NCBI GenBank assembly: GCA_964356705.1
Contig: CAYHIN010000002.1
Coordinates: forward strand, 1 to 39,305
Origin: an uncultured Gammaproteobacteria bacterium
GTDB lineage: Bacteria > Patescibacteriota > Microgenomatia > CAZETR01 > Amesbacteraceae
Direction of reading: 5' to 3'
Length of the DNA stretch: 39,305 nt
This document shows, piece after piece, positions 61 through 38,022 of this stretch. The notes beneath the pieces were generated by a model. That model worked only from the letters and a program-made list of their open reading frames with translations. It searched no databases and was not told the origin of the DNA. Numbering within the stretch: position 1 is the first letter of the stretch; the number at the start of each line of letters is the position of its first letter. The position numbers and the translations under genes are program-made.

Positions 61-129
61 GTCATCCTGAACGACCCCCCGGTCATCCTGAGCGCCACCC
101 CGTCATCCTGAGTGAAGCGAAGGATCCAG
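61..129. repeat. Three tandem heads of the GTCATCCTGAGC hairpin repeat family; only the third copy is complete
   Basis: GTCATCCTG starts at 61, 82 and 102 (spacing 21 and 20 nt). The third copy continues as GTCATCCTGAGTGAAGCGAAGGATCCAG (102-129). That copy supplies the last 9 codons and the stop of tatD on the minus strand. Confidence 0.8.
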
Positions 130-837
130 CTTAAATAATTTCACTGCATTTTCTGTCGTTATCTTGTCAATTGTATCAATACTTACCCCCCTTGTTTCAG
201 CCAAAACCTTTGCCACCAGCCGTACATTAGCCGGATTGTTTACTGATCCTCGCAAGGGTTCTGGGGCCAGATATGGACTATCTGTTTCTATTAGTAGTCT
301 ATCCTCAGGCACGGCCGAGGCGACCGCTCGCAAATCATGGCTGTTTTTGAAAGTCAGTATCCCCCCAAAACTTATATAACATCCCAGCCCCACAAACTTT
401 TTAGTCCACTCTTGATCTCCTGTCCAACAATGCATTTGGATGCCCCTTAGCACTTCGCGCTTAGCACTTAGCACTGAATACACTTTTTTAAACTGGTTTC
501 GACAGTGGACAACCAGAGGCAATCCAGTTTCTTTGGCGAGTTCAATGTTTACTTTGAATAATTGAACTTCCTCTTCACTATCCGAATCCAGTCCACATTC
601 CCCAATCGCCACCACTTTAGGCTCTTTTGTCATTCTGAGCAGCAGCGAAGAATCCAGTTCTTTACTCATTTCTTCAGGGTGAACTCCCACAGTAGCCCAG
701 ACGTTTGAATGTTTTTGCGCCAGCTCAATCGCCTTCTCGCTGCTCTCAAAATCTGCTCCACAGCAGATCATCTGCAGATCTAGACCTGCCCACATCTCCT
801 CTGGCACTTCATACAAATGACAATGTGCATCAATCAT
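103..837 (-). CDS. tatD: TatD-family metal-dependent hydrolase/DNase
   Basis: 244-aa ORF with MIDAHCHL at the N-terminus. Also carries GVHPEE, AIGECGLD, VVHCR, MHCWTG and ETDSPYL motifs typical of the TatD amidohydrolase fold. TGA stop at 103-105. Confidence 0.9.
   Translation of the reverse strand: MIDAHCHLYEVPEEMWAGLDLQMICCGADFESSEKAIELAQKHSNVWATVGVHPEEMSKELDSSLLLRMTKEPKVVAIGECGLDSDSEEEVQLFKVNIELAKETGLPLVVHCRNQFKKVYSVLSAKREVLRGIQMHCWTGDQEWTKKFVGLGCYISFGGILTFKNSHDLRAVASAVPEDRLLIETDSPYLAPEPLRGSVNNPANVRLVAKVLAETRGVSIDTIDKITTENAVKLFKLDPSLHSG
445..480. repeat. Heptamer-phased cassette (CTTAGCA/CTTCGCG/CTTAGCA/CTTAGCA/CTGAATA) inside tatD
   Basis: Direct reading of 446-480. The first 32 nt (445-476) match 12617-12648 at 28 of 32 positions. 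Confidence 0.85.
629..660. repeat. Hairpin repeat copy inside the tatD CDS
   Basis: GTCATTCTGAGCAGCAGCGAAGAATCCAGTTC aligns base for base with 844-875. The stem arms are ATTCT/AGAAT here versus ATCCT/AGGAT there, a compensatory change. Confidence 0.8.
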
Positions 838-5409: not shown

Positions 5410-5876
5410 GTACTCAGTCTCTAATATCAAAATTGAAACCAGGAGTATTCATTTTGGTAAACGAAAAGAAATACGAAATTCTTCAACACATCGTTTGGTA
5501 TCAAGCCAAATGTGGAGAGAATTACGATAAGTATGTCCTAGGAGATGAGTCCGGGAACCATGAATACAGACTTTTCATTTCAGGAGACATTATTGGAATC
5601 TCAACAATATTCCATCATCCATTCCAAGAGCCAATGCCTAAAGAGTTAAATTTCGAGGGAAAGAGTTATCGACTGACTCAAGACGAATTTTGTGTTGTCA
5701 GATTGGTAGAAGGTCAAGAATTTTATAAAACAGGAGATGCAGAAATCTGGTGGGACTATGCACCAGTTGACGGTCACGGAGAAGGTCTCAGTTTAGGACG
5801 AAATTGGGATACTTGGGAACGTGAAGATCTGAGGACTCAGGAATTAAGCATCACGGACATACAAGTACAGGAATAA
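5406..5876 (+). CDS. Hypothetical protein (possibly DUF4178-like two-repeat beta protein)
   Basis: 156-aa ORF whose start and stop overlap its neighbours by 4 and 1 nt. It shows weak internal duplication (KKYEIL... / GKSYRLT...). No diagnostic motif was found. Confidence 0.55.
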   Translation: MSTQSLISKLKPGVFILVNEKKYEILQHIVWYQAKCGENYDKYVLGDESGNHEYRLFISGDIIGISTIFHHPFQEPMPKELNFEGKSYRLTQDEFCVVRLVEGQEFYKTGDAEIWWDYAPVDGHGEGLSLGRNWDTWEREDLRTQELSITDIQVQE

Positions 5877-6196
5877 TGAAATCATCCGCCTCGATTGATT
5901 ATCTTAAAGAAGAGGTATTCAGAGACATCTCAGGTCTTACGTATCGCCCAATGTTTGGCGGAGTTTGTATCTACAAAGATGGTGTTGCTTGCGGCATGCT
6001 AGCTGACGACATTTTGTATTTCAAAGTGGGGGACAACAACAGACCAGATTACGAAGCCGCCGGCAGCAAGCCATTTGAATATTCAATGAAAGGCAAGACT
6101 TACAAAATGTCATATTGGGAGGTTCCCCAGGAAGTTTTGGACGATTCTGATAAACTAAAAGTATGGCTAAAAAAGTCACTCGAGACAAAAAAGTAA
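5876..6196 (+). CDS. TfoX N-terminal domain protein
   Basis: RPMFGGVCIYKDGVACGMLADDILYFKVGD matches the TfoX_N signature (MFGG...DG..F....D..LYLK). The start overlaps the upstream stop in a TAATG junction. Confidence 0.8.
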   Translation: MKSSASIDYLKEEVFRDISGLTYRPMFGGVCIYKDGVACGMLADDILYFKVGDNNRPDYEAAGSKPFEYSMKGKTYKMSYWEVPQEVLDDSDKLKVWLKKSLETKK

Positions 6197-10568: not shown

Positions 10569-13373
10569 ATGTCAACAGACTCAAACCAAAAAAACTTCAA
10601 TCCCCAGCAAACTGAGGCCATTCAGCACGGCTCAGGACCACTCCTGATCATCGCCGGCGCGGGCACCGGCAAGACCATGGTTATCACCCAGCGCATCAAA
10701 CATCTGATTGAGTCAGGTCAGGCCAAGTCAGAGGAGATCCTAGCTCTCACTTTTACCGAAAAAGCAGCAAACGAGATGGAGACTCGGGTCGACCAGTTGC
10801 TTCCTCTCGGCTACACCCAGTTATGGATTCTCACCTTTCATTCTTTTTGCGACCGGGTTCTCAGATCCGAAGGCTTACACATCGGCCTGCCCACCGATTA
10901 CGAACTTCTGACCGGCGTCAATTCATTGAGTTTTTTTAAAAAGCATTTCTTTAATTTTGATATCACTTACTTTCGCCCTCTGGGCAATCCCTACAAATTC
11001 ATCGAGGCCCTACTTCAGCATTTCAGCCGTCTCAAAGACGAGGACATTACTCCCGAACAATATTCACATTGGGCCCAAGACAAAGGTGATCCAGAAAAAG
11101 AATTAGCGAAAGTCTTTTCGGATTACGAATCACTGAAAATAAAAGAAGGCAAGCTAGATTTTGGAGATCTGATTACCTGGACTCTCAAGCTCTTTCGTGA
11201 CCGGCCAGAGATTCTGAAAAAATATCAGAAGCAATTTAAATATATTTTGGTCGATGAGTTTCAGGACACAAATTATTCTCAGAATATTTTGGTAAATTTA
11301 TTGGCAGGTAAAGACCAAAATCTCACCGTGGTCGCCGATGATGACCAAGCCATCTACAGATGGCGCGGAGCCGCCGTTTCCAACGTCATTCAATTCAGAA
11401 AAACCTATCCCAATTCAAAATTAGTAGTCCTCACCCAAAACTACCGCAGTACCCAGACTATTTTGGATCATGCCCATGATCTGATCCAGTTCAACAATCC
11501 TGATCGATTAGAAATAATAGAAAAGATAGACAAAAAGTTAACCTCTTCTCGAAAAGCCGTTGGGGAAGAGATCGAGCATCTCCACTTCTCTCACGCCGAG
11601 TCCGAAGCAGATGGCGTCGCGCAAAAAATTGTCTCACTTCTGCAAGAGCCCGGGGCCGAAACTACTCACAACCTACAACCCAAGGACTTTGCAGTCCTTG
11701 TGCGTGCCAACTCCCACGCCCTGCCGTTTATCAAAGCCTTGGAGGCAGCCGGCATTCCCCACCAGTTCCTAGGTCCCAGTAAGCTTCTGGACCGGCCCGA
11801 GATCCGCGATCTTACGGCTCTTCTCCATGTCTTGTCCGATCTGGGTGACGACACCTCTTTCTACCGTATTCTCTCAATGCCCATATTTTCTCATTCACCC
11901 AGGGCTATCGCAGATCTGTCCGCAACGGCCAAAAAAGAAAATCTTTCATTGTTTGTTGCTGCCGAGGAAAATCCCCAGTTCAAGCCCATCACTGATTTGG
12001 TAAATAAATATTTAGGCCTAGTTCGAGAAGCCAGTGCCGGACAAATTATCTACACTTTTTTGCAAGACACTGGTCTTTTAAAGAAAGTCGTAAATTACGA
12101 CTCAAAAGAAGAAGAACAACAAGCTCTAAATATCGTCAGGTTCTTCAACAAATTGAAGTCCGCAGACGGAAGCCTGCAAGAATCATTAGATTGGTTAGAT
12201 CTACTGGCCAGATCCGGGGATTCTCCTCAAGCAGCAGAGGTAGACTGGTCCACCGAAAACGCTGTAAATATCATGACCATCCACTCGGCCAAAGGACTGG
12301 AGTTTCCGGTCGTATTCTTGGTCAGTTTGGTCTCAGGTCGCTTCCCCTCAATTTCACGAAGCGAAACTCTGCCCATCCCAGATGATCTGGTAAAAGAGAT
12401 TTTGCCTGGAGGTGATTTTCATCTCCAAGAAGAGCGCAGGTTGTTTTACGTTGGTATGACCCGTGCCAAAGACAAGCTGTTTTTGACTAGTAGTGATTAC
12501 TACGGTGACGCCAAGCGCCTCCGCAAACCCTCACCATTCATCACTGAAACTCTAGGTAACTCTAGCCATTCAACCATTCAACCATCTAACAATTTCGTTT
12601 TCAAAAAATCAGAAACCCTTAGCACTTCGCACTTGGCGCTTAGCGCTGCTGTAACATATTTAAGTTACAGTCAAATTCAGACCTTCCTCGACTGCCCCTT
12701 GCACTACAAAGCCAAATATCTTTTGCATCTCCCGACTCCACCATCTGCTGCCAGCACTTTTGGCAACGTTATTCACCTGACCCTCAAGCAGTATTACGAG
12801 AAGTATAAGGCAGGTGACAAACCAGACATTGTCGGTCTTCTGGATAAAAACTGGTTATTAGGAGGTTTCGAAAACAAAAAACACGAAGAATTGTACAGAG
12901 CCAAAGGAAAAAAGTTCCTAACAGACTTCGCTACCCACCAGTTTGATCCCCAAAATCTCCCCCTCAAGCTAGAAGAGCCATTCGTTGTGCCATTAAACGG
13001 ATTGAAGATCGGCGGAAAGATAGATCGGGTAGATCAGCTCCCAGGCGGAAAGATAGAGATTATTGATTACAAGACTACTGCCAAGCCTTTGACCCAAAAA
13101 GAGGCAGATCAAAATCTCCAGCTCTCATTTTACGCGTTAGCGGCCACCATGCTGCCCAACTCTCCTTTTGCAAAAAAAGCAGAAGAAGTAGTCCTCAGTC
13201 TCTATTATTTTGAAACCGGCGAAAAAGTGACGACGTCTCGCACGGCAGATCAGTTAGAAGAAGCAAAAAACCAAATTTATGAATATGCCCGCCAGATTAG
13301 CCAGTCAGATTTCAAATGCAACAAATCATTTTATTGTGGAGACTGTGATTTCTTTGAGTTGTGTGACCACTAG
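10569..13373 (+). CDS. UvrD/Rep-type SF1 helicase fused to a C-terminal PD-(D/E)xK (RecB/Cas4-like) nuclease with a Cys cluster
   Basis: Walker A is AGAGTGKT. Helicase motifs include DEFQDTN, QNYRS, IHSAKGLEF and YVGMTRAK. The C-terminal part carries IDRVD, IIDYKT and CNKSFYCGDCDFFELC, an AddB/Cas4-style iron-sulfur-type Cys arrangement. Confidence 0.9.
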   Translation: MSTDSNQKNFNPQQTEAIQHGSGPLLIIAGAGTGKTMVITQRIKHLIESGQAKSEEILALTFTEKAANEMETRVDQLLPLGYTQLWILTFHSFCDRVLRSEGLHIGLPTDYELLTGVNSLSFFKKHFFNFDITYFRPLGNPYKFIEALLQHFSRLKDEDITPEQYSHWAQDKGDPEKELAKVFSDYESLKIKEGKLDFGDLITWTLKLFRDRPEILKKYQKQFKYILVDEFQDTNYSQNILVNLLAGKDQNLTVVADDDQAIYRWRGAAVSNVIQFRKTYPNSKLVVLTQNYRSTQTILDHAHDLIQFNNPDRLEIIEKIDKKLTSSRKAVGEEIEHLHFSHAESEADGVAQKIVSLLQEPGAETTHNLQPKDFAVLVRANSHALPFIKALEAAGIPHQFLGPSKLLDRPEIRDLTALLHVLSDLGDDTSFYRILSMPIFSHSPRAIADLSATAKKENLSLFVAAEENPQFKPITDLVNKYLGLVREASAGQIIYTFLQDTGLLKKVVNYDSKEEEQQALNIVRFFNKLKSADGSLQESLDWLDLLARSGDSPQAAEVDWSTENAVNIMTIHSAKGLEFPVVFLVSLVSGRFPSISRSETLPIPDDLVKEILPGGDFHLQEERRLFYVGMTRAKDKLFLTSSDYYGDAKRLRKPSPFITETLGNSSHSTIQPSNNFVFKKSETLSTSHLALSAAVTYLSYSQIQTFLDCPLHYKAKYLLHLPTPPSAASTFGNVIHLTLKQYYEKYKAGDKPDIVGLLDKNWLLGGFENKKHEELYRAKGKKFLTDFATHQFDPQNLPLKLEEPFVVPLNGLKIGGKIDRVDQLPGGKIEIIDYKTTAKPLTQKEADQNLQLSFYALAATMLPNSPFAKKAEEVVLSLYYFETGEKVTTSRTADQLEEAKNQIYEYARQISQSDFKCNKSFYCGDCDFFELCDH
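12617..12652. repeat. Heptamer-phased cassette CTTAGCA/CTTCGCA/CTTGGCG/CTTAGCG/CTGCTGT in the helicase-nuclease linker
   Basis: Direct reading. It matches the tatD copy at 445-476 at 28 of 32 positions. Confidence 0.85.
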
Positions 13374-14200
13374 ATAGGTAGTCTCCACTTCACAAAGCTG
13401 CCTGCAAACTCAATTTCTTTTCCTCCAAACCCTTTTTTAAATCTGGTAAATCCCAGCCAGCCTTTATTTGGCCATCTGTTGTCGTAAATTCCTTCAAAGT
13501 CCCAGGACTTACATCCCATTTCGCGGGCTTTTTTCATAGCTTCCCATACGACAAGATAAGGCAAGTTATTCTTATTACCTTCTTTTGTAGCCCCTGCATA
13601 ATAGTAGTAGGCGCACTTGTCATGCATTAGTACCAAAGCCCCTGCATTGTTATCAATGCAGACCGAAAACACCTTTTCTCCAAAGCATTGGATCAGAGCG
13701 TCATAATCTTTTTTACTGGGTATCCACAGACTTTTTCTTTTGGACGATTTTTTCCATATTTCATAAAAACTGTCAAACTGATTCAACTTAATTGAAAACT
13801 GTAAACTCTTACTTGAAAACTTTCTCAGCGTATATCGGCAGTCCTTACTGAACAACTGCATGATTTTTTCTTCACTCGGCCTCAAGTCTACTCGTAAAGT
13901 TTTACTAGCAAGTAGCGGCCAATTATCCTGGCGAAATCCGGTTGATTGTCCAGAAAGAGGCTCCACCTTACACATCATCACTCTATTCTTTTTCAGTATC
14001 TCACTCAGATCTGGCAGTGGCATATTCACTCTCTGGATCTTGGCAATACTCACTGGTCCTAGTGTTCTAACAAATAACTGAAAACTGTTACCTGAATCCT
14101 GAAAACTTATCGTTTTCCACCCAATCCTCTCCATATATCTCCCATACTCATCAGATTGTCTCAAGTCCTGTATTACTTCAAAATCCTTAGCATTTTCCAT
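13370..14200 (-). CDS. FemAB-family peptidoglycan aminoacyltransferase
   Basis: YYYAGATKEGNKNNLPYLVVWEAMKKAREMGCKSWDFEGI resembles the FemX/FemAB C-terminal GNAT-like core. Its stop overlaps the helicase stop through the sequence CTAG. Confidence 0.8.
   Translation of the reverse strand: MENAKDFEVIQDLRQSDEYGRYMERIGWKTISFQDSGNSFQLFVRTLGPVSIAKIQRVNMPLPDLSEILKKNRVMMCKVEPLSGQSTGFRQDNWPLLASKTLRVDLRPSEEKIMQLFSKDCRYTLRKFSSKSLQFSIKLNQFDSFYEIWKKSSKRKSLWIPSKKDYDALIQCFGEKVFSVCIDNNAGALVLMHDKCAYYYYAGATKEGNKNNLPYLVVWEAMKKAREMGCKSWDFEGIYDNRWPNKGWLGFTRFKKGFGGKEIEFAGSFVKWRLPI
13764..13826. repeat. Three-unit 21-nt periodic cassette (GAAAACT/AAACT phased) inside FemAB gene 1
   Basis: TTGAAAACT occurs at 13792 and 13813, 21 nt apart. 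AAAACTGTCAAACT (13766) resembles AAAACTGTAAACT (13795). On the minus strand the region encodes FSSKSLQ/FSIKLNQ/FDSFYEI. Confidence 0.7.
14078..14112. repeat. Heptamer-phased cassette CTGAAAA/CTGTTAC/CTGAATC/CTGAAAA/CTTATCG inside FemAB gene 1
   Basis: Direct reading. It shares the 10-mer TGAAAACTGT with 13793-13802. Confidence 0.8.
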
Positions 14201-15114
14201 CTTATCTCTTCCACAAGTCTAAATAATTTATACAGCAGGGGATTGACTGGCAAATCATAAGTCCCCACCATTTCCATAAGCTTGGGTCCAAACTGCACCT
14301 TAAATCTCGCAAACCCTTTTCCTTCTTCTGTCCCCCACAGATCCAGCGTTTCATAACCAGATTTCTTGCCCCACCTGATTATTTCCCACAATCCCAGGAC
14401 TGGCGCCATGACATTTTTGTAATCATCATCAAAAGCCCCGTAAGCGTAATAGATAAATTTATCCCAAGCAAACACCATCCACACGGCAATTATCTTGTCT
14501 TGATAAGTCGCTTTAAATAAATGAACAAAAGAAAGTTTTGCTAGCTCTCGGTGATATTTTTCAGAATGAGCATAAATCTTTTGTCTTTTGGTCGTCTTTC
14601 CAAACATGAGTAGTAAATAATCTTCAATGCAATCTTTATCTTCAGATATTTCCACACCATGTTTCTGCGACAAGCGAATGTTATACCTTGTCTTCGGGTG
14701 CATATTTTTTTGCAGCTCTTCTTCACTTTGTGTGAGATCAATCCAAAAAGTCTTAGGCTTAAACAAATGCCTCCCAGGTTTCAAAATACTTGATACTTTA
14801 TACGTGATACTTGATACATGGTTAGGTTCAAACCTAATGCCTAGGCCATTCTCCTTAATCGCTTCATTACTTAATAACTTAATGTCTTTTTGTGTTGGTA
14901 CGGGACTCATGGGGCAATATCCAAACCAAAGATTTGTCGGCTTTATCTTCGTCCACATAATCAGATATTGGTTTTCACCCTCGATCCTCGATACCTTATT
15001 CCCCATCTTCTCGCGAAACTCACCCCACTCAAGACCCTGCATCGGATGTCTGATCGCTATGTCCCAATTCCCACTCACCCCAAAATTATAACTTCCCCCA
15101 AGCCAACACGCCAT
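14173..15114 (-). CDS. FemAB-family peptidoglycan aminoacyltransferase (paralog)
   Basis: IYYAYGAFDDDYKNVMAPVLGLWEIIRWGKKSGYETLDLWG is FemAB-like. The N-terminal segment aligns with that of the neighbouring paralog. ATG start at 15114. Confidence 0.8.
   Translation of the reverse strand: MACWLGGSYNFGVSGNWDIAIRHPMQGLEWGEFREKMGNKVSRIEGENQYLIMWTKIKPTNLWFGYCPMSPVPTQKDIKLLSNEAIKENGLGIRFEPNHVSSITYKVSSILKPGRHLFKPKTFWIDLTQSEEELQKNMHPKTRYNIRLSQKHGVEISEDKDCIEDYLLLMFGKTTKRQKIYAHSEKYHRELAKLSFVHLFKATYQDKIIAVWMVFAWDKFIYYAYGAFDDDYKNVMAPVLGLWEIIRWGKKSGYETLDLWGTEEGKGFARFKVQFGPKLMEMVGTYDLPVNPLLYKLFRLVEEIRWKMLRILK
14786..14820. repeat. Heptamer-phased cassette ATACTTG/ATACTTT/ATACGTG/ATACTTG/ATACATG inside FemAB gene 2
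   Basis: Direct reading. On the minus strand it encodes VSSITYKVSSI. Confidence 0.85.
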
Positions 15115-17225: not shown

Positions 17226-17243
17226 AGTACTTTTGTGGGAGAT

Positions 17244-19762: not shown

Positions 19763-21625
19763 TCAATCTTCAGGACTCCACTTCCAATTTCCATCAGTAT
19801 CAAATCCCCACTGTGTCTCGACGTAGCCTAAACGCAGTTTTGGCGTAGGCGGACGAGGTCCCTCTACTAACCTCTCTGGGATATCAGCGACAAACCGGGA
19901 GACCACTCCTCCAGATCTTTGCCCGTAGATCATTCTTCTTCTGGCATAGGTCACATACAGTTTTTCCATAGCCCGCGTGATCCCCACGTAAGCGAGTCTC
20001 CTCTCTTCTTCCATCTCATCGGCTTTCATAAGGGTCCTAGAGTGGGGAAATATCCCTTCTTCCATCCCGACCAGAAATACCGTGGGGAATTCCAAGCCTT
20101 TGGCTGAGTGAAGAGTCATCAGAGTTACCGCCCCCTTCGCCTCGCCGTAGTCTTGACGGAGGCGGGTGGCCTTTTTACTCTCTTTTTCGGTCAGCGTGAT
20201 ATTTTCCAACAGCTCGTTTAGGACTGGAAATTGCGTCGCCACAGACCTCAGCTCCTTGATGTTTTCCAGTCGAGCCATATCTTCTTCGTCGTTTTCATTA
20301 AACTGCTCTAGATACCCGGTTACTCTCAACACTTCATCCAGTAGTTCCAAGCTTGGGATTTGTGAATTGAGATTTGCGATTTGTAGCTTTGCTAGTCTCC
20401 CTTTCCCATTTTTCTCAGCCCGTTTCATCGCAATCTCATTTTCAGGATTGATAACTAGTTGCAGATACGCGAGAATATCTTTTACTTCTTTTCTTTCATA
20501 AAAACGCACGCCACCCACCAAAGTGTAAGGAATACTCATATGCAAAAAAACCTCTTCCAATATGCGCGACTGCGCATTTGTTCTATACAAAATCGCAAAG
20601 TCAGAATACTTATTGAATCCTGAATCTTGAATTTTGGATACTACAAACTCAGCTTCCTCTACCTCAGTATCTGTCTCGTGAACAGTAATTTTTTCGCCCG
20701 CTCCCTTATCGGTCCACAAGGCTAGTATGGGGTGGTTTTTGTTTTTCCCAATCACCTCGTTGGCCGCCATCAAAATGTTTTCCGTCGAACGATAATTTTG
20801 TTCCAGATTAATAATTTTTAGATCCGCAAAATCTTGTTTCAAAAGTAACAGGTTTCTGTAGTCCGCCCCACGCCAAGAATATATTGCCTGAGCTGCATCA
20901 CCTACGACCGTCAGATTTCTATACTTTTTTGCGAGAGTCTTTGTGATCTCATATTGCGCTTTATTTGTATCCTGATACTCATCGACCAATATGTATTTAA
21001 ATTGATCTTGCAGTTCGTCCAGCACATCTGGGTTATTTTTCAGAAGCTTTACAGTGAGCAGCAGTAGATCGTCAAAATCCACGGCTTTGTATTTGTTCAT
21101 CAGTTGGTTATAGACCAGGTATGCCCTCGCCACGTCTCGGTTCCAGTTAGATCTGGCAAAATTTGCATAATCATGCGGACTCACCAGCTCATTTTTTGCA
21201 TTCGATATCGCCCCCAAGACAGCTCCTGGCTTTATCGTCTTTACATCCAGTCCCACAGCTAGCATGGCCCGTTTTACAGTATCCAGCTGATCCGCTACAT
21301 CAAATATTACAAAATTTCTGTCCAATCCCGCGGGCCCAGCATATCTTCGCAATATTCGCGCACAAAAACTATGAAATGTCCCACCCACCACACCCTCTCT
21401 ACCAACCAGTCTCTCCACCCTTTTTATCATTTCCTGAGCACTTTTATTGGTAAAGGTCAAAAGTAGTATTTCCTCCGGTCTTGCATCGGAGTTTTCCAGT
21501 AGGTATGCTACACGGTAGGTCAAAACCCGAGTCTTGCCCGATCCTGCCCCAGCTAGCACTAGCAGGGGTCCGCCTGTATAAGTTACCGCTTTTTGTTGGT
21601 CGGGATTTAGGTCAGTCAATTGCAT
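19763..21625 (-). CDS. pcrA: UvrD/PcrA-type SF1 DNA helicase (short, 620 aa)
   Basis: LNPDQQKAV and Walker A AGAGSGKT are present. Further helicase motifs are DEYQDTN, QNYRST, LHSAKGLEF and YVGITRA. Confidence 0.9.
   Translation of the reverse strand: MQLTDLNPDQQKAVTYTGGPLLVLAGAGSGKTRVLTYRVAYLLENSDARPEEILLLTFTNKSAQEMIKRVERLVGREGVVGGTFHSFCARILRRYAGPAGLDRNFVIFDVADQLDTVKRAMLAVGLDVKTIKPGAVLGAISNAKNELVSPHDYANFARSNWNRDVARAYLVYNQLMNKYKAVDFDDLLLLTVKLLKNNPDVLDELQDQFKYILVDEYQDTNKAQYEITKTLAKKYRNLTVVGDAAQAIYSWRGADYRNLLLLKQDFADLKIINLEQNYRSTENILMAANEVIGKNKNHPILALWTDKGAGEKITVHETDTEVEEAEFVVSKIQDSGFNKYSDFAILYRTNAQSRILEEVFLHMSIPYTLVGGVRFYERKEVKDILAYLQLVINPENEIAMKRAEKNGKGRLAKLQIANLNSQIPSLELLDEVLRVTGYLEQFNENDEEDMARLENIKELRSVATQFPVLNELLENITLTEKESKKATRLRQDYGEAKGAVTLMTLHSAKGLEFPTVFLVGMEEGIFPHSRTLMKADEMEEERRLAYVGITRAMEKLYVTYARRRMIYGQRSGGVVSRFVADIPERLVEGPRPPTPKLRLGYVETQWGFDTDGNWKWSPED
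20357..20391. repeat. Heptamer-phased cassette GATTTGT/GAATTGA/GATTTGC/GATTTGT/AGCTTTG inside pcrA
   Basis: Direct reading. On the minus strand it encodes LQIANLNSQI. Confidence 0.75.
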
Positions 21626-22579: not shown

Positions 22580-24668
22580 TTTCGTACACTCGAGTCTGTC
22601 CGGACTCATATATCACTCGACCCAATTTTCCAAACTTTTTTTCATCCAGAGTCGGATATTTCTGCCTTTCCCCGCTTCCCACTATGACCAGCCTTACATC
22701 GTATTTTTTTAGGATAGTTTGAGCCACGTTTACGTCTGTTGTTTCATAGACATCTCTGACTTCTTGGGTTCTTTTGGCAATCACGTCGTATCCTCTCCAT
22801 AGCCATTCATGCACCAGCCACCCGCCGACCGTCGGCGCTCCCGAAAAAGCCGAGATTCTATTTGCATCAGTATAGCTGTCTCCCGAAGCCTCGAGGATCA
22901 CTGGCATTTTTCCTGGTGGGTAATTTTTCTCAATCAGTTTTACGATTTCAAAGTCTTCCGGGTATCTGGTTTCAAACCACTCGAGTCCATACAGGCCTTG
23001 ATGATTTTTCAGTCCCCCAAAATACGATTTCACGGCAAAATATGGATAAATACCAATTAAAAAGACCAGCGGCAGTACTCCCAGTTTGTACCACTTGCTC
23101 TGAGTGGTCGCGACCACATACCCCGAGATAATGGACATAAGTATAAATACCTGATACCCCAGCTTAAACATAGTGTTGCTCCTAAAGTGCATCGGATAAA
23201 TATCCTTAAAGTAGAAAAACTCCGGGAAAATAATCAGCCCCAAACAAAACAAACTAATTACTAAAAATATCTTATTAACTGGGTTTTGTGTCTTGAGTCT
23301 TGAGTCTTGTAGCCACAATGCGGCAGCATTGTAGGCGAAGAATCCCCACAGCAACAGCATCATCCAGATGGGGGACCTTTGACATTTGTCGACCGTCTCA
23401 AAGACAATTGGTCCGATCTTTTGATTGGCCAAGAAAGCCGGTGGACAATTGACTGCTAGTCCCGATACAAATGGCTCAAAGTTCAAAACAAACGGCGATA
23501 TTGTAATCCCAAAGGAAACAAAAACAATCAACAACTTAACCATATGTCCATATAGCAATCTTCTGTCAAACAATTCGCGTCCGTATTTCCATACATATAG
23601 TAGTCCAAACAGTCCAGCATATATCAGTCCATCCAAGGCATTGGTCATAAACATGAGTCCGGTCAGTATTCCAAATACGACCATCTTCGTCTTATCTATT
23701 TTTCCCAGGGCATACATTTCGAAAATCATTGCAATCCCGAGTAGTACCAGAGGAATATCCAGTACATGCCCGTGCATATCTGAGACTACAAATGAGTAAG
23801 ACGGAAATTCATGGATTGTGTACGGGATAAATCTCGTTGCGTTTGGATACCAATATGAGTTCCAGCCCACCGAAGTAGGCTGCCAAATTTTCCAAAAAGG
23901 TGGAGGCTCGTCCCCACTATATCCAGACGTAAACGCATATATAGTCTGCAGATTTCCCGACAGTGCCACAAAAAAGATAGTCAACATCACCCCCGCCCAC
24001 TTTTTATCACCGCGCAAATGCCGCAGCAGTCTAAGTGCCATGCTTGCTACCATCGAGACTGTCAAGGCAAAAGTAGACGCCAGCATTAGGTTAAATCCAT
24101 ACGCCAGGTCTACCCCCGATATCCGGGACACAATCGCCATCATCAAATGTCCAAAGTAGTAGTAATTAATCGGCTTCCCTGTATACCACATGTCAGCCGG
24201 GGGGAAGTATTCGCTATGTAATATCGATTTGGTAAATCCATAGTCCATAAATTTCTCTAGTCCATTTATCGAGGGCTCATGTGCTTTTACCCACGCCCAT
24301 GTTAGTAGTGCTAGTCCAAAAAACACCTCACACAAAATCAGCTTTTTCCAGGCCACAGACACTTTAGTATTTCTTACATATCCCACCACTCCCACAATCC
24401 CCGCGATCGCAAGTGTTGTCACCAGACTGAACGGCACAATTCTCAATGATCCCAATACCCAAGCTACCAGTGCTACTATTCCCAGTCCAAACGCTTTTGC
24501 CAGCATATAGCCCTGATCTGGCCAATTTGAAAAAAAACGTTTACAGTACCCAAATCCCACCACCCCAAAAAACCACCACGCCACCCACCACTGCAAGGTC
24601 AACACTATATCTGACGCCATAAAGTAAATTATAATCAAAACTTGTGAAAAAGTATTTGGCATTCTCAA
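22572..24668 (-). CDS. DUF2298 'YYY' multi-pass membrane protein (GT-C-like)
   Basis: 698-aa ORF with many TM helices and the signature PINYYYFGH. The start is uncertain; alternatives are 24662 and 24620. Confidence 0.75.
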   Translation of the reverse strand: MRMPNTFSQVLIIIYFMASDIVLTLQWWVAWWFFGVVGFGYCKRFFSNWPDQGYMLAKAFGLGIVALVAWVLGSLRIVPFSLVTTLAIAGIVGVVGYVRNTKVSVAWKKLILCEVFFGLALLTWAWVKAHEPSINGLEKFMDYGFTKSILHSEYFPPADMWYTGKPINYYYFGHLMMAIVSRISGVDLAYGFNLMLASTFALTVSMVASMALRLLRHLRGDKKWAGVMLTIFFVALSGNLQTIYAFTSGYSGDEPPPFWKIWQPTSVGWNSYWYPNATRFIPYTIHEFPSYSFVVSDMHGHVLDIPLVLLGIAMIFEMYALGKIDKTKMVVFGILTGLMFMTNALDGLIYAGLFGLLYVWKYGRELFDRRLLYGHMVKLLIVFVSFGITISPFVLNFEPFVSGLAVNCPPAFLANQKIGPIVFETVDKCQRSPIWMMLLLWGFFAYNAAALWLQDSRLKTQNPVNKIFLVISLFCLGLIIFPEFFYFKDIYPMHFRSNTMFKLGYQVFILMSIISGYVVATTQSKWYKLGVLPLVFLIGIYPYFAVKSYFGGLKNHQGLYGLEWFETRYPEDFEIVKLIEKNYPPGKMPVILEASGDSYTDANRISAFSGAPTVGGWLVHEWLWRGYDVIAKRTQEVRDVYETTDVNVAQTILKKYDVRLVIVGSGERQKYPTLDEKKFGKLGRVIYESGQTRVYEII
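23284..23311. repeat. Tandem heptamer TCTTGAG x2 plus TCTTGTA (preceded by TTTTGTG) inside the DUF2298 gene
   Basis: Direct reading of 23291-23311 shows a 14-nt exact tandem duplication. Confidence 0.9.
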
Positions 24669-26167
24669 TCTTTGCCATTTGGCTCATGTTTTCCACCCTC
24701 TCTTACGTGAATGGCGAATTCCGCGTCTCATCAAAAGTTTGGAGTGACTTTGGCGCCGCCATCCCCCTCATGCGCTCCTTCTCCCAAGGGCAAAATTGGC
24801 CTCCAGAGCACCCGCTCTTCCCCGGCGAACCCATTAGATATCACTATTTGTTTTACCTAGGCGCAGGCCTGCTTGAGCGAGCGGGTCTCAGACCCGACCT
24901 CGCCCTAAATCTACTCAGCACAATTGGTTTTTTTGGCCTCATGACATTGGTTTACAAATTGGCCGGGCATCTCTTTGGCAAAAAAGCCTCCCTTATAGCC
25001 GTCGTATTTCTGATCTTCAATAGTTCATTCTCCTTCGTCGATTATTTTGCAGATCGGGGACTATCCCTCAAATCACTCATGGCTGTTCCTTTTCAGACCG
25101 AGTTTGCCTCCTTTTATCCCTGGAGGGAGTCAAAAGTCGCTGCATTCTGGAACCTAAATATCTATACCAACCAGCGCCATCTGGCCTTTTCATACGCCAT
25201 AGTTTTACTGATTATCTATATAAACTACGCTCGCCCCAGATATCTCTGGCTCACAGGTATATTGCTGGCAACTCTGGCTTCTCTAAACCAAGCCGCTTTA
25301 TTGATTGCCATAATTTATCTTTTTTTCCTATGTATCCAAAACAGGCACTTGTGGAAGACTTATTTATTCTCGGCTCTCTTAGGGCTGCCGTTTTTATACC
25401 CTTATTTATTTATGTCTCATGTTCCGCCCCAGATTTTATTTCATCCGGGGTTTATCACCCAAAACCCTCTTCGTTTCTGGTTATTCAATCTCGGTCTCCA
25501 CTTCTTTTTTATACCTATTGGTTTTCTTTTTGCCTCAAAAAAGATGTCCTCTCTCGTCTTTGGCACCATAGTCACATTTCTTCTCGCAAATCTCTACCAG
25601 TTCTCTCCCGATATGTTCAACAATCATAAGTTCATAAACTTTGCCGTCATTATAGGCTCCATGTTCACCGCAGGTCTCATCATAAAATTCAAGCCGGCAA
25701 TACGTTATACGTTATACATAATACTTATTTTGGGTGGTCTCTTTGATATCTTTCCTATTATCAACGACAGAAAAGTAATACTGTCCGACCGACACACAAA
25801 CCCGGACATTCAGTTTTACAGTACTCTTCCTCGAAAATCAGTCGTCCTCAACAGCACCTGGTTTTATCACCCAGCCAGTATCGCCGGACTGCCAATTTTT
25901 AACGGCTACTCTTACTTTACTTGGTCATATGGCTACGACCAAAGACAAAGGGAGAAAGAGGCGATGACTATATATGCCTCGCCCAACAAACCCACCGCTT
26001 GCTCATTATTGCTGGAAAACAACATCTCTTACGTCGAGCTCAATCCTCATCACGAAGGGTTCTTACAGCCAAACTACTCACTCTGGTCAAATGAATTTGC
26101 AAAAGTTTATACCAATCCTGAAACTGAAACGACAGTTTACTCCGTTGCAAAATCATGCACAAGTTAA
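24644..26167 (+). CDS. Multi-pass membrane protein, GT-C glycosyltransferase-like
   Basis: 507-aa ORF with 10 or more TM helices. A conserved loop PGEPIRYHYLFY is followed by a C-terminal soluble domain. The GTG start overlaps the divergent DUF2298 ORF. Confidence 0.6.
   Translation: MKKYLAFSIFAIWLMFSTLSYVNGEFRVSSKVWSDFGAAIPLMRSFSQGQNWPPEHPLFPGEPIRYHYLFYLGAGLLERAGLRPDLALNLLSTIGFFGLMTLVYKLAGHLFGKKASLIAVVFLIFNSSFSFVDYFADRGLSLKSLMAVPFQTEFASFYPWRESKVAAFWNLNIYTNQRHLAFSYAIVLLIIYINYARPRYLWLTGILLATLASLNQAALLIAIIYLFFLCIQNRHLWKTYLFSALLGLPFLYPYLFMSHVPPQILFHPGFITQNPLRFWLFNLGLHFFFIPIGFLFASKKMSSLVFGTIVTFLLANLYQFSPDMFNNHKFINFAVIIGSMFTAGLIIKFKPAIRYTLYIILILGGLFDIFPIINDRKVILSDRHTNPDIQFYSTLPRKSVVLNSTWFYHPASIAGLPIFNGYSYFTWSYGYDQRQREKEAMTIYASPNKPTACSLLLENNISYVELNPHHEGFLQPNYSLWSNEFAKVYTNPETETTVYSVAKSCTS
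25700..25727. repeat. Heptamer-phased cassette ATACGTT/ATACGTT/ATACATA/ATACTTA
   Basis: Direct reading. This is a weaker case because it rests on a single exact 7-nt duplication. Confidence 0.55.
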
Positions 26168-36231: not shown

Positions 36232-38022
36232 ATGCAGAATATCCGTAACTTCGCCATTATTGCCCACGTGGATCATGGCAAATCGACACTGGCCGATCGA
36301 TTGTTAGAGATTACTGGAACGGTTCAAATGCGCGATATGCAAGCCCAGCTTCTAGATAGCAATCCCATCGAAAGAGAGCGGGGGATCACGATCAAGCTGG
36401 CCCCTGTTCGTATGCATTATCAGGGATATATCTTAAATCTTATCGATACCCCAGGTCACGTCGATTTTGCTTATGAAGTGAGCAGATCTCTGGCCGCCTG
36501 TGAAGGCGCCATTCTTTTGGTGGACGCCACCCAGGGAGTCCAGGCCCAGACTCTGGCCCACTACAACCAAGCCAAAAAACTAAATCTCACGATTATCCCC
36601 GTCATCAACAAAATCGATATCACGATAGCCGACGTCGAAAGTTCACTAGCCCAGATGCAGGACATCCTGGGTTTCTCCGAAGATGAAATTCTCAAAATCT
36701 CAGGAAAAACGGGCGAGGGCGTTATCGAATTGTTACAAGTAGTCATCGACCGCATCCCTCCGCCCACACTACCTATCTCACTACCCACTACTCACGACGC
36801 ACCCTTACAAGCATTGGTTTTCAATTCCAATTACGATTCTCATCTTGGCGTCATCGCCTGGGTCAGGCTTTATTCCGGTACTCTGAAAAAACAAGACAAG
36901 TTGTATCTTCTGGCTACTCGAGCAACTACAACCGCCATCGAAATCGGAGTCTTTTCTCCCACCAAAAAACCCATAGATAGAATAAACGCTGGCGAAGTCG
37001 GCTACGTCGTCACCGGCCTGCGTGATCTATCCGAACTTACAACTGGAGATACACTTACAACCGAAAACTCACAACTTACAACTGCATTACCGGGTTACAT
37101 CCCAGCCAAGCCCGTGGTCTTCGTAAGTTTCTATCCCACCGATGGCGCCGATATTCACTTGTTGCATCAGGCTTTAGATAAGCTCAAGCTCCAGGATAGT
37201 GCTCTTATCTATACTCCCGAGTTTTCACCAGCTCTTGGCAACGGTTTTCGCGTAGGTTTACTGGGCCTCTTGCACGCCGATGTCGTCCAAGAGCGTCTCG
37301 AGAGGGAATTCAATCTGAGTCTTATAGCAGCCGCCCCCTCAGTCAGTTATGAGATCGAGATGGCAAATGGCGCAACAATTGAGATTTCCAAAGCCATGGA
37401 TTTACCAGACCCGTCTGAGATCAATCAGATCAAAGAGCCAATTATCGCTTTATCGATTTTCGTTCCCGACAATTTCACCGGTCCGGTCATGCAGCTGTGC
37501 CAAAATCACCGGGGGACTCTCCAAAATATGGATTACAAAGGCCAGATCGTAAATTTGCACTATCTCATGCCTTTGTCCGAGCTCATCAAGCAGTTTTACG
37601 ACACACTGAAGAGTGTATCGCAGGGCTTTGCCACTCTAGATTATGAATTGATAGGTTACGAGCCAGCCGATCTTGTTCGTTTAGACATCTTAATAGCGGG
37701 AGACAAGATTGACGCCCTGTCTCAGATTCTTCCTCGGGCCCAAGTCGACCATCTCGCCAAGGGTTTAGTCGAAAAACTAAAAGATATTATCCCCAGGCAA
37801 AATTTTGAAGTGGCTATCCAAGCCGCCATCGGTGGAAAAATTCTAGCCAGAGCCGATATCAAATCTTTTAGAAAGGACGTCCTGGCCAAGATGTCCGGTG
37901 GCGATCAGACTCGAAAAGACAAGTTGCTGAAAAAACAAAAAAAAGGCAAATCCCGCATGAAGCACGTGGGTCGTATCGACATCCCCCAAGAAGCATTCCT
38001 AAGTATCTTGAAGATCGATTAA
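36232..38022 (+). CDS. lepA: Translation elongation factor 4 (LepA)
   Basis: IRNFAIIAHVDHGKSTL (G1), DTPGH, NKID and the LepA-specific C-terminal domain are present. Length is 596 aa. Confidence 0.97.
   Translation: MQNIRNFAIIAHVDHGKSTLADRLLEITGTVQMRDMQAQLLDSNPIERERGITIKLAPVRMHYQGYILNLIDTPGHVDFAYEVSRSLAACEGAILLVDATQGVQAQTLAHYNQAKKLNLTIIPVINKIDITIADVESSLAQMQDILGFSEDEILKISGKTGEGVIELLQVVIDRIPPPTLPISLPTTHDAPLQALVFNSNYDSHLGVIAWVRLYSGTLKKQDKLYLLATRATTTAIEIGVFSPTKKPIDRINAGEVGYVVTGLRDLSELTTGDTLTTENSQLTTALPGYIPAKPVVFVSFYPTDGADIHLLHQALDKLKLQDSALIYTPEFSPALGNGFRVGLLGLLHADVVQERLEREFNLSLIAAAPSVSYEIEMANGATIEISKAMDLPDPSEINQIKEPIIALSIFVPDNFTGPVMQLCQNHRGTLQNMDYKGQIVNLHYLMPLSELIKQFYDTLKSVSQGFATLDYELIGYEPADLVRLDILIAGDKIDALSQILPRAQVDHLAKGLVEKLKDIIPRQNFEVAIQAAIGGKILARADIKSFRKDVLAKMSGGDQTRKDKLLKKQKKGKSRMKHVGRIDIPQEAFLSILKID
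37035..37089. repeat. Phased cassette with ACTTACAAC x3 (offsets 18 and 21 nt) inside lepA
   Basis: Copies start at 37035, 37053 and 37074. The region encodes LTTGDT/LTTENSQ/LTTALPG. Confidence 0.85.

What the first reader, a model, noticed from the sequence alone, without database searches (positions are those of the whole stretch)
445..476. The same 32-nt element sits in tatD and in the helicase-nuclease gene but is translated from opposite strands
CCTTAGCACTTCGCGCTTAGCACTTAGCACTG (445-476) and CCTTAGCACTTCGCACTTGGCGCTTAGCGCTG (12617-12648) are identical at 28 of 32 positions in the same plus-strand orientation. The first 14 nt match exactly.

tatD is on the minus strand and reads the element as SVLSAKREVLRG. 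The helicase-nuclease gene is on the plus strand and reads it as TLSTSHLALSAA, in the linker between its helicase and nuclease domains.

A nucleotide element shared by two unrelated CDSs in opposite coding senses must be maintained or spread at the DNA or RNA level, not by protein homology. All four differences are G/A transitions at the same phase of the heptamer.
Basis: seen in the sequence. Interest (0 to 1): 0.65.

Follow-up and report, generated by a model that had tools for sequence, protein, structure and literature searches.

The report
In-frame heptamer mini-repeats in Amesbacteria genes
A roughly 32-base DNA element made of four 7-base repeats sits in frame inside unrelated housekeeping genes of an uncultured groundwater bacterium and is read from either strand. 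It is one of many such 7-base arrays that this lineage, unlike other bacteria, carries inside its genes, so it is a DNA-level repeat and not a shared protein motif.

Summary
Window 445-476 and 12617-12648 share 28 of 32 nt. Each is about 4.3 tandem copies of CTTAGCA after a CC(C) prefix. One lies in tatD (minus strand, SVLSAKREVLRG), the other in the linker of a UvrD-PD-(D/E)XK helicase-nuclease (plus strand, TLSTSHLALSAA).

The pair is not isolated. The window comes from a Candidatus Amesbacteria (CPR) groundwater genome. It holds 10 period-7 arrays against 0.2 expected, and no other period is enriched. In Amesbacteria loci, 32 of 34 arrays lie inside long ORFs, against 25% in heptamer-rich loci of other phyla.

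The shared CTTCGC unit is where a perfect array would give an in-frame TAG (plus) or TAA (minus). The element is open in only one frame per strand, and those are the frames used.

At least five further copies with unrelated, in-frame flanks occur in the source-site metagenomes. The same element lies at the same helicase site in two more distant Amesbacteria but not in the closest relative, and inside FemAB in another genome.

Five TatD orthologs carry different 4-unit heptamer arrays at the same loop. Substitutions are shared by all units of an array, which indicates DNA-level concerted evolution.

Best reading: a cyanobacterial-STRR-like heptanucleotide repeat class that has colonised tolerant coding loops. 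It spreads or is homogenised by templated copying and is filtered for frame and stop codons. The mechanism is inferred, not shown.

The parts
443..476 (+). Copy A of the element: CC(C) prefix, then CTTAGCA CTTCGCG CTTAGCA CTTAGCA CTG. It lies inside tatD and is read from the minus strand as SVLSAKREVLRG (residues 121-132).
   Evidence: In the AF2 model it maps to the C-terminal end of helix 116-124 and the loop before strand 133-136.
12615..12648 (+). Copy B of the element: CC prefix, then CTTAGCA CTTCGCA CTTGGCG CTTAGCG CTG. It lies in the helicase-nuclease linker and is read from the plus strand as TLSTSHLALSAA (residues 683-694).
   Evidence: The same element sits at the same site in L003 and, partly decayed, in L213.
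103..837 (-). tatD (TatD-family hydrolase), host gene of copy A.
   Evidence: Pfam PF01026, E = 4e-68; ortholog alignment A1.
10569..13373 (+). UvrD-like helicase fused to a PD-(D/E)XK nuclease, host gene of copy B.
   Evidence: Pfam PF00580, PF13361 and PF12705; ortholog alignment of the linker.
14782..14823 (+). Heptamer array ATACTTG x4.6 inside FemAB-family gene 14173-15114 (minus strand). It is conserved as an array in relative L006 and has about 4 extra copies in the source metagenomes.
14076..14103 (+). Weak heptamer array (CTGAAnn) inside FemAB-family gene 13370-14200 (minus strand). L003 has a different heptamer insert at the orthologous site.
20352..20385 (+). Heptamer array (nTTGnGA x4.4) inside the second UvrD helicase gene 19763-21625 (minus strand). 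It replaces a variable segment of the same length in L006.
20609..20643 (+). Heptamer array (CyTGAAT) inside the second UvrD helicase gene.
23277..23315 (+). Heptamer array CTTGAGT x3.4 inside the DUF2298 membrane-protein gene 22572-24668 (minus strand). No extra copies were found in runs X1 and X4.
25695..25731 (+). Heptamer array ATACGTT x4.3 inside ORF 24644-26167 (plus strand).
36775..36804 (+). Weak heptamer array (CACTACn) inside lepA.
37056..37084 (+). Heptamer array ACTTACA x4.4 inside lepA 36232-38022 (plus strand). It lies between the GDT and LPG motifs.
12566..12585 (+). 8-mer array CCATTCAA x2.5 in the same helicase linker (HSTIQPS), also present in L213.

Best explanation
The two 32-mers are two copies of a small dispersed repeat. 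It consists of a CC(C) prefix followed by about 4.3 tandem CTTAGCA heptamers. It belongs to a class of short heptanucleotide arrays that is strongly over-represented in this Candidatus Amesbacteria (CPR) lineage. Unlike heptamer repeats in other bacteria, these arrays sit inside protein-coding genes.

**Shown**
1. Period-7 arrays of about 30 nt are common. They lie almost exclusively in ORFs, in variable loops and linkers.
2. A perfect (CTTAGCA)n array has stop codons in all six frames. The single A-to-C change in unit 2 opens exactly one frame on each strand, and those are the frames tatD and the helicase use. This explains how one DNA element can be translated in opposite senses.
3. Near-identical copies occur at several unrelated in-frame sites and in different genes in different Amesbacteria.
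4. Arrays at an orthologous site keep their position and their four units while every unit changes together.

**Inferred**
1. Arrays arise by polymerase slippage or reiterative copying, which favours 7-nt units. This is the explanation proposed for heptanucleotide repeats in general.
2. They are copied or homogenised between and within arrays by short-patch templated repair, meaning ectopic conversion or template switching.
3. Selection keeps only copies that preserve the frame, lack stop codons and fall in structurally tolerant segments.

On this reading the element has no role in TatD or helicase function. It is a tolerated product of a lineage-specific mutational or recombinational process.
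For: **Period-7 excess**
- The window has 10 arrays against 0.2 in triplet shuffles. Other periods give 0-2.
- Amesbacteria loci have 29 per 100 kb, against 3.3 per 100 kb in 515 kb of diverse TatD loci. The diverse loci show the usual excess at periods 6, 9 and 12.

**Coding location**
- 32 of 34 arrays lie in ORFs of at least 150 aa, where such ORFs cover 91.5% of the sequence.
- In heptamer-rich loci of other phyla the figure is 81 of 321, with 86% ORF cover.
- 75 of 122 CTTAGYR arrays elsewhere have no open frame at all.

**Stop-codon logic**
- Six-frame reading of the element and of five further copies shows only the LSTS..LALS frame and the VLSAKREVLR frame are open.

**Dispersed copies**
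- Contigs in runs X1, X4 and X7 carry the element with unrelated flanks. They differ from copy A at 1, 1, 2 and 4 positions, and from copy B at 2-3 positions.
- Their depth is 4.6-7.4, close to the window's 4.7-8.1.

**Same element elsewhere in Amesbacteria**
- It sits at the same helicase site in L003 (57% aa identity, 19 nt identical in a row). A decayed version is in L213. The closest relative L006 (77%) lacks it.
- In L003 FemAB the element is +18 nt relative to orthologs.
- The non-periodic CC prefix is shared.

**Concerted evolution at the TatD loop**
- GTGCTAA, GTACTAA, GTGCTCA, ATGCTCA and GAATTAK arrays, each of four units, occupy the same loop. Fixed differences are present in all units of an array.

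**Restricted unit vocabulary**
- 8-13% of non-orthologous array pairs differ by at most 1 mismatch, against 2-3% for random heptamers.

**Tolerant position**
- The TatD segment is the end of a helix and a loop before a strand, in an AF2 model with pLDDT 90.9.
- The helicase linker is hypervariable.

**Literature**
- Heptanucleotide repeats are the commonest long SSR class in many bacteria. A polymerase-slippage explanation has been proposed (PMC4679880 and PMC4692102, both citing Mrazek 2007).
Against: - No copying event was observed.
- The extra copies are assigned to the same genome only by similar depth.
- Array copy number does not vary in contigs of the four runs laid on each copy (six runs in all), from 2021 and 2025. 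Contigs do hide rare variants.
- Units are not significantly more alike within a genome than between genomes (12.8% against 8.2%, permutation p = 0.11).
- Simple slippage cannot build or homogenise a 4-unit array in an essential gene without frameshifted intermediates of +/-7 nt.
- Slippage alone does not explain the uniform length of about 30 nt or the CC prefix.
- Some arrays have no extra copies, for example 23277.
- Two Amesbacteria loci, L213 and L214, have few arrays.
Confidence: 0.55

Rival explanations
1. The element is a true non-autonomous mobile mini-element. It would be comparable to cyanobacterial small dispersed repeats or to in-frame Rickettsia palindromic elements. A trans-acting enzyme encoded elsewhere in the genome inserts it as a discrete unit of about 32 nt, and the array structure is simply its sequence.
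For: - The copies have a discrete, uniform size and a shared non-periodic CC prefix.
- Copies differ by only 1-2 mismatches while their flanks are unrelated.
- In L003 FemAB the element is a net insertion of +18 nt.
- It is present at the helicase site in the window, L003 and L213 but absent in the closer relative L006.
Against: - There are no terminal inverted repeats and no hairpin (fold z-scores -0.8 to +0.9).
- No target-site duplication can be recognised.
- The window encodes no transposase, reverse transcriptase or integrase.
- Many arrays replace a segment of equal length rather than adding sequence.
- Dozens of different heptamer units behave in the same way, which argues against one element with one recognition sequence.
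- Orthologous TatD arrays differ by changes shared across all units, not by presence or absence.
Confidence: 0.17
2. The arrays arose independently where they are, with no spread. Each arose by local slippage. The two arrays share a unit because a few heptamers of the CTTRGYR type are intrinsically favoured. They share the CTTCGC unit because it is needed to remove stop codons.
For: - CTTAGYR arrays occur in many unrelated phyla.
- The variant unit coincides with the in-frame stop position in both genes.
- In the L003 arrays the CTTCG unit sits at a different unit position in each array, as the reading frame dictates.
- The probability that some two of the 10 arrays share a unit by chance is about 0.04 under a uniform vocabulary. 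It is higher under a restricted vocabulary.
Against: - Several copies match the imperfect 31-mer with a single mismatch and have the same ends.
- The CC prefix is shared across genes and genomes but is absent from arrays of other phyla.
- A-to-C is the fix in five of six arrays, although about eight single changes would remove the stop.
- Growth of an array by slippage inside an essential gene requires frameshifted intermediates.
Confidence: 0.15
3. The arrays are functional DNA signals kept by selection or by a molecular drive. They could be binding arrays for a DNA-binding protein. They could also be uptake or recombination signals that accumulate in tolerant coding positions, as USS and DUS do in naturally competent bacteria.
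For: - Arrays persist as arrays at the same site across orthologs with about 50% aa identity.
- The helicase element is retained in three lineages within an otherwise hypervariable linker.
- Arrays often replace sequence without changing its length.
- The window encodes TfoX_N, PilN and PilO.
- From my own knowledge: USS lie largely in coding regions, in both orientations, in weakly constrained protein segments.
Against: - Many different units coexist, so there is no single motif.
- The CTTAGCA element has low density, 2 copies in 39 kb.
- No uptake or binding data exist.
- L213 and L214 have few arrays.
- The decayed copy in L213 suggests neutrality.
Confidence: 0.1
4. The similarity reflects protein-level homology or convergent selection on the encoded peptides.
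For: - Similar peptides recur at the TatD loop (VLSAKREVLRGI against VLSTKYKVLRGI).
- Similar peptides recur in the helicase linker (LSTSHLAL in P0136).
Against: - The two window peptides are translations of opposite strands and are unrelated.
- The substitutions shared by all units fall at different codon positions. They are synonymous in some units and non-synonymous in others.
- The same DNA yields SAKYEVLSAKG in FemAB.
Confidence: 0.02

Closest known systems
Heptanucleotide simple sequence repeats of bacteria. Examples are cyanobacterial STRR (Mazel 1990, from my own knowledge), TAACTGA repeats of Beggiatoaceae and cyanobacteria (PMC4679880) and GGGAATC / GGGGAYT repeats of Xanthomonas and Nostoc (PMC4692102). 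The general excess of period 7 was noted by Mrazek 2007, as cited in both papers.
   Same: - Head-to-tail 7-nt units.
- Strong excess of period 7 specifically.
- Short arrays of 3-6 units.
- Many loci per genome.
- Lineage-specific abundance.
- The very unit CTTAGYR forms arrays in many phyla.
   Different: - Those repeats are overwhelmingly intergenic and often perfect.
- Here 94% of arrays are inside ORFs and in frame. They are imperfect exactly where stop codons would arise, about 30 nt long, and conserved in position between distant orthologs.
Small dispersed repeats (SDR) of Nostocales, 'very small mobile repeated elements' (Elhai et al. 2008, Genome Res 18:1484). The paper is not held in the library, so the comparison rests on my own knowledge.
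   Same: - Elements of a few tens of nucleotides.
- Too small to encode anything.
- Dispersed in many copies.
- Found in genomes rich in heptamer repeats.
- Mechanism of spread unknown.
   Different: SDRs are not themselves heptamer arrays. Their defining sequence features could not be checked here, so membership was not tested.
Rickettsia palindromic elements (RPE), which are selfish DNA inserted in frame into protein-coding genes (Ogata et al. 2000, from my own knowledge; mentioned in PMC1779305 and PMC10969869).
   Same: - A repeated DNA element sits in frame inside unrelated housekeeping genes of a reduced genome.
- It is translated into extra or replaced peptide segments at tolerant positions.
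   Different: - RPEs are 100-150 bp and palindromic, forming hairpins.
- This element is about 32 nt, a direct tandem repeat without significant secondary structure. It is read in both orientations.
DNA uptake sequences (USS of Pasteurellaceae, DUS of Neisseriaceae), from my own knowledge.
   Same: - Short DNA motifs that accumulate inside coding regions, in both orientations, in weakly constrained protein segments.
- They do so without changing length.
- Lineages have their own dialects.
   Different: - USS and DUS are single motifs of 9-12 bp at about 1 per kb, with demonstrated uptake bias.
- Here there are many different tandem heptamers, the density of any one unit is low, and no uptake data exist.
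Phase-variable contingency loci with heptanucleotide repeats, for example the hmw1A/hmw2A promoters of Haemophilus influenzae (PMC8262952).
   Same: Tandem 7-nt units whose gain or loss would shift a reading frame or change promoter spacing.
   Different: - Contingency loci have many units and vary between cells.
- Here there are only about 4 units, in housekeeping genes. No copy-number variation was seen in the contigs of four runs laid on each copy.

Membership tests
Heptanucleotide SSR (long simple sequence repeat) | At least 3 head-to-tail copies of a 7-nt unit | tested here: met
   TRF reports period 7 with 4.3 and 3.9 copies at 80-82% matches. Own self-match scan.
Heptanucleotide SSR (long simple sequence repeat) | Period 7 over-represented relative to other periods and to shuffled sequence | tested here: met
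   10 arrays against 0.2 expected, with other periods at 0-2. 29 per 100 kb in Amesbacteria loci against 3.3 per 100 kb in unrelated loci.
Heptanucleotide SSR (long simple sequence repeat) | Predominantly intergenic location | tested here: not met
   32 of 34 arrays lie inside ORFs of at least 150 aa, against 81 of 321 in other phyla.
Heptanucleotide SSR (long simple sequence repeat) | Copy-number polymorphism between strains or samples | tested here: inconclusive
   Contigs of four runs laid on each copy show no indel in either array. Contigs drop rare variants.
MITE / REP / RPE-type palindromic mini-elements | Terminal inverted repeats or a stable hairpin | tested here: not met
   Fold z-scores run from -0.78 to +0.86 on both strands of both copies. 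The element is a direct repeat.
MITE / REP / RPE-type palindromic mini-elements | Multiple dispersed copies with unrelated flanks | tested here: met
   At least five further contigs in runs X1, X4 and X7. Copies in L003 FemAB and helicase.
MITE / REP / RPE-type palindromic mini-elements | Target-site duplication and a cognate transposase (or RAYT) | not testable with these tools
   No clean empty site is available. The window encodes no transposase. The rest of the genome could not be read.
Rickettsia-palindromic-element-like in-frame coding insertion | The element lies in frame within conserved genes and adds residues relative to orthologs | tested here: inconclusive
   - +18 nt in L003 FemAB.
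- About +15 nt in TatD relative to most orthologs.
- No length change in the helicase linker or at several other arrays.
Phase-variable contingency locus | A long, variable repeat tract in a surface or regulatory gene, with frame-shifting alleles in the population | tested here: not met
   Only about 4 units, in housekeeping genes (tatD, helicase, lepA, femAB). No frame-shifted alleles appear in contigs.
Diversity-generating retroelement variable repeat | A template repeat and a reverse transcriptase nearby, with differences confined to template adenines | tested here: not met
   The window has no reverse transcriptase. A-to-G differences between copies A and B run in both directions. The element is only 32 nt long.
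Known RNA family | A match to an Rfam covariance model | tested here: not met
   No match at gathering score anywhere in the window.
DNA uptake sequence (USS/DUS) | A single motif at about 1 per kb, with preferential uptake of DNA that carries it | not testable with these tools
   The density of the CTTAGCA element is 2 in 39 kb, and many different units coexist. Uptake bias needs an experiment.

The most novel reading that the evidence does not exclude
Amesbacteria may possess a dedicated, largely length-preserving patch-writing process. It would repeatedly overwrite about 30-nt stretches of tolerant coding sequence with four copies of a heptamer taken from a small shared vocabulary.

The agent could be a templated polymerase or reverse-transcriptase activity. 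It could also be an uptake- and recombination-driven molecular drive.

Under this reading the arrays are the footprint of an undescribed genome-editing or DNA-signal system in CPR bacteria, and not a slippage by-product.
Probability: 0.1. Interest if true: 0.85.

Novelty: new variant of a known kind. Interest (0 to 1): 0.55.

Why it matters
- **A repeat class inside genes.** Heptanucleotide repeats are a long-noted and unexplained feature of some bacterial genomes, and they are treated as intergenic. Here a CPR lineage with almost no intergenic space carries them at similar density inside essential genes, repaired for stop codons and translated from either strand.
- **A natural experiment.** These arrays show how much non-protein-driven sequence a compact proteome tolerates. 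They also give a source of lineage-specific loop and linker peptides.
- **A handle on the mechanism behind period 7.** Orthologous arrays evolving in concert inside conserved genes offer phylogenetically anchored sites. Array birth, homogenisation and decay can be timed at those sites.
- **A practical warning.** Such segments can mislead protein alignments, homology searches and selection tests in CPR genomes.

Tried and rejected
1. **RNA or DNA structure.** Folding both strands of both copies gave nothing significant. Rfam found nothing.
2. **Replication-strand polarity.** Arrays look co-oriented on the window's plus strand (19 sites against 5). The bias is confined to minus-strand genes (20:2), while plus-strand genes give 4:4. 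Stop-codon filtering and sense-strand composition explain this. All loci are syntenic, so polarity is not established.
3. **Genome-specific unit families.** The pattern is suggestive in L211 (ATACTCA in rnhB, metS and tatD), in L003 (CTTAGYA in helicase and femAB) and in the window. The permutation test gives p = 0.11.
4. **Genome contigs pattern scan.** It showed that the unit is pan-bacterial but could not census the source genome.
5. **Metagenome-contig scan with the TatD alignment.** It returned mostly distant TatD genes (33-54% identity). These were usable only as background.
6. **Searching the big protein database with the element-encoded peptides.** This was not possible because a 10-12-aa match cannot reach the allowed E-value ceiling.
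7. **Elhai 2008 (SDR).** The paper could not be read.
8. **DGR, contingency-locus and protein-homology readings.** All were rejected on tested features; see the membership table.
9. **Assembly artefact.** Rejected, because the arrays are identical in independent assemblies and runs from two studies. They also recur at orthologous sites in MAGs from other projects.
Full report
**1. Observation**

- They agree at 28 of 32 positions, and 15 nt in a row are identical once the preceding C is counted.
- Tandem Repeats Finder reports both as period-7 arrays of CTTAGCA.
- ORF 103-837 (minus strand) is a TatD-family hydrolase. It reads the element as SVLSAKREVLRG, residues 121-132.
- ORF 10569-13373 (plus strand) is a UvrD-type helicase fused to a PD-(D/E)XK nuclease. 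It reads the element as TLSTSHLALSAA, residues 683-694. That is between the UvrD_C domain (to 642) and the nuclease domain (from 698).
- About 5e-4 such pairs are expected by chance in the window.
- All four differences are G/A transitions.

**2. Source and setting**

- Exact-protein look-ups place the window in groundwater metagenome assemblies (ENA ERZ1292624 and ERZ1292625, contigs named Hain_H41_01um).
- The best homologues are Candidatus Amesbacteria, in the Microgenomates group of Patescibacteria/CPR.
- The window is ordinary chromosome: metS, tatD, rmuC, glyA, rnhB, two UvrD helicases, FemAB-family genes, DUF2298, PMT-type glycosyltransferases, murJ, lepA and pilN/pilO. It encodes no transposase, integrase or reverse transcriptase.

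**3. The pair belongs to a pervasive class**

- *Count in the window.* I counted 28-nt windows with at least 15 of 21 self-matches at offset p. The window has 10 period-7 arrays against 0.2 in triplet-block shuffles. Every other period from 4 to 15 gives 0-2.
- *Density.* Across 116 kb of Amesbacteria loci the density is 29 per 100 kb for period 7. In 515 kb around TatD genes of diverse other organisms it is 3.3 per 100 kb. Those other loci show the usual excess at periods 6, 9 and 12 expected of coding DNA.
- *Location.* 32 of 34 Amesbacteria arrays lie inside ORFs of at least 150 aa. That matches the 91.5% of sequence such ORFs cover, so coding sequence is not avoided.
- *The unit elsewhere.* The unit is not specific to Amesbacteria.
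- *Contrast with other phyla.* There, 75 of 122 arrays have no open frame through them. Only 25% of all heptamer arrays in those loci lie in long ORFs. Those genomes are also heptamer-rich, with 24 further arrays per 100 kb.
- *Literature.* This fits the reports that heptanucleotide repeats are the commonest long simple-sequence repeat in many bacteria and are mostly intergenic (PMC4679880, PMC4692102).
- *What is unusual.* In Amesbacteria the arrays sit in genes, are short (about 4-4.6 units) and are imperfect.

**4. Why one DNA element can be read in both senses**

- A perfect (CTTAGCA)n array carries TAG in every plus-strand frame and TAA in every minus-strand frame, once per 21 nt.
- The A-to-C change in unit 2 (CTTCGC) removes the TAG that would fall in the helicase frame. 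The same change removes the TAA that would fall in the tatD frame.
- The element is then open in exactly one frame per strand, and those are the frames used.
- So part of the shared imperfection is forced by selection. It is not by itself evidence of common descent.
- In another Amesbacterium (L003) the CTTCG unit sits at unit 1, 2 or 3 of three arrays, as each reading frame requires.

**5. Evidence that the element is nevertheless a dispersed DNA repeat**

- *Further copies in the source metagenomes.* I laid contigs of the source-site runs on the element.
  - Four further contigs match copy A over 31-35 nt with 1, 1, 2 and 4 differences.
  - Two contigs match copy B with 2-3 differences, and one of these is also among the four that match copy A.
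  - All have unrelated flanks, and their depth is 4.6-7.4, like the window's own contigs at 4.7-8.1.
  - The same flanks recur in runs X4 and X7.
- *Same helicase site in distant relatives.*
  - L003 (57% aa identity) has CCC CTTAGCA CTTCGCA CTTAGCA CTTAATA at the same linker site.
  - L213 (61%) has a partly decayed version.
  - The closest relatives (77-78%) have an unrelated linker of the same length.
- *A third gene family.* In L003 the element also lies in a FemAB-family gene, as AGTGCTAAGTACGAAGTACTAAGTGCTAAGGG encoding SAKYEVLSAKG. It is +18 nt relative to the window and L006 orthologs.
- *Shared non-periodic prefix.* A CC(C) prefix precedes the first unit in copies A and B, in both L003 copies and in L213. 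It is absent from arrays of other phyla.
- *Another multi-copy array.* The FemAB array at 14785-14817 also has about four extra copies in the metagenome. The DUF2298 array has none.

**6. Concerted evolution at an orthologous site**

Five Amesbacteria TatD genes (48-72% aa identity to the window) all carry a four-unit heptamer array at the same loop.

| Source | Array |
|---|---|
| window | GTGCTAA GTGCTAA GCGCGAA GTGCTAA |
| L005 | GTACTAA GTACTAA GTACAAA GTGCTAA |
| L209 | GTGCTCA GTACTCA GAACTCA GTGCTCA |
| L211 | ATACTCA ATGCTCA AGACTCA ATGCTCA |
| L207 | GAATTAT GAATTAG GAATTCG GAATTAT |

- Diagnostic changes are present in all units of an array: CTAAG, CTCAG or CTCAA, and a leading G or A.
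- These changes fall at different codon positions. They are synonymous in some units and non-synonymous in others.
- That pattern indicates homogenisation at the DNA level. It is not what protein-level constraint or independent point mutation would produce.
- A comparison with the close relative L006 gives the same picture at other arrays. The FemAB array is conserved as an array. Others are same-length replacements of variable segments, or sit where the relative has a different or decayed heptamer pattern.
- The helicase linker of L211 is likewise built of heptamer arrays, including an inverted pair.

**7. Structural tolerance**

- An AlphaFold2 model of the TatD (mean pLDDT 90.9) places residues 121-132 at the C-terminal end of helix 116-124 and in the loop leading to strand 133-136.
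- From general knowledge of TIM barrels, this is the side away from the catalytic face.
- In the helicase the element lies in a linker of about 45 residues. That linker is hypervariable in 60 orthologs, and in many of them it reads like translated heptamers.

**8. Mechanism**

- *Shown:* the period-7 excess, the coding location, the stop-codon logic, the dispersed copies and the concerted change.
- *Inferred:*
  1. Arrays originate by the slippage or reiterative-copying process proposed for heptanucleotide repeats generally.
  2. Templated short-patch copying, either ectopic conversion or template switching, spreads and homogenises them.
  3. Selection keeps only copies that are in frame, free of stop codons and in tolerant positions.
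- *Weak points:*
  - No event was observed.
  - No copy-number polymorphism appears in the contigs of four runs laid on each copy.
  - Within-genome unit similarity (12.8% of non-orthologous pairs within one mismatch) is not significantly above between-genome similarity (8.2%, p = 0.11). Both exceed the 2-3% expected for random heptamers.
  - Simple slippage cannot explain the uniform length of about 30 nt, the CC prefix, or homogenisation inside essential genes without frameshifted intermediates.
- *Rivals:* a true mobile mini-element, independent origin in place, and a functional DNA signal. Protein-level homology is excluded.

**9. Comparison with known systems**

- The class is closest to bacterial heptanucleotide SSRs and cyanobacterial STRR. 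It fails their usual intergenic location.
- It works like Rickettsia palindromic elements in being translated in frame within housekeeping genes. It is not palindromic and is four to five times shorter.
- It resembles cyanobacterial small dispersed repeats in size. I could not read that paper.
- It shares with USS/DUS the accumulation in tolerant coding segments in both orientations. It is not a single dense motif.
- Full-text searches found no report of heptanucleotide arrays in CPR/Patescibacteria coding regions.

**10. Verdict**

- I rate it a new variant of a known kind, namely heptanucleotide repeats that have moved into coding sequence as in-frame elements of about 30 nt evolving in concert.
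- Interest is moderate. The mechanism is unresolved.

Noticed in passing
window 61-125, 629-656, 844-870: A second small repeat family, GTCATYCTGAGC...GAAGRATCC, is present.
- It has a 5-bp stem, ATCCT/AGGAT, with a compensatory ATTCT/AGAAT in the copy at 629-656.
- Three partial tandem copies supply the last codons and the stop codon of tatD.
- One copy lies in frame inside tatD (LDSSLLLRMT, also present in ortholog P0001).
- One copy fills the tatD-metS spacer.
- Metagenome depth over it reaches 157-174x against about 4x for the flanks, so it is very abundant in the community.
   Followed up: partly
window 12566-12585: An 8-mer tandem array, CCATTCAA x2.5, lies in the same helicase linker and encodes HSTIQPS. 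It is conserved at the same site in L213. Extra matching contigs occur in runs X6, X8 and X9.
   Followed up: partly
L211 559-603 and adjacent linker (helicase gene, minus strand of the locus): The helicase linker of this relative holds two heptamer arrays that are reverse complements of each other: GGTTCAT x4 and ATGAACC x2. Together they could form a hairpin in DNA or mRNA.
   Followed up: no
window 15144-19731: Four genes lie between FemAB and the second UvrD helicase: a 693-aa Laminin_G_3/NHL protein, an ORF with no family match, a Bro-N domain protein and a methyltransferase. The close relative L006 has only a 53-aa ORF there. This appears to be a variable island.
   Followed up: no
window 1-39305: GC skew is negative across almost the whole window regardless of gene orientation, with a cumulative value of -2.9. 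This suggests a single replichore strand.
   Followed up: no
window 5876-6196 and 32355-33495: The window encodes a TfoX_N-domain protein and PilN/PilO homologues. These are related to competence and type IV pili, and they bear on the uptake-signal rival.
   Followed up: no
helicase orthologs P0131, P0177, P0202: Some Amesbacteria orthologs of the helicase-nuclease are about 350 aa longer and carry an intein domain (PF14890).
   Followed up: no
window 12467-12693 (run X1): One 2980-nt contig in the source run matches the conserved helicase sequence on both sides of the linker. It has 240 unrelated letters in place of the window's 225. This is a co-occurring relative with a wholly different linker of similar length.
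   Followed up: no
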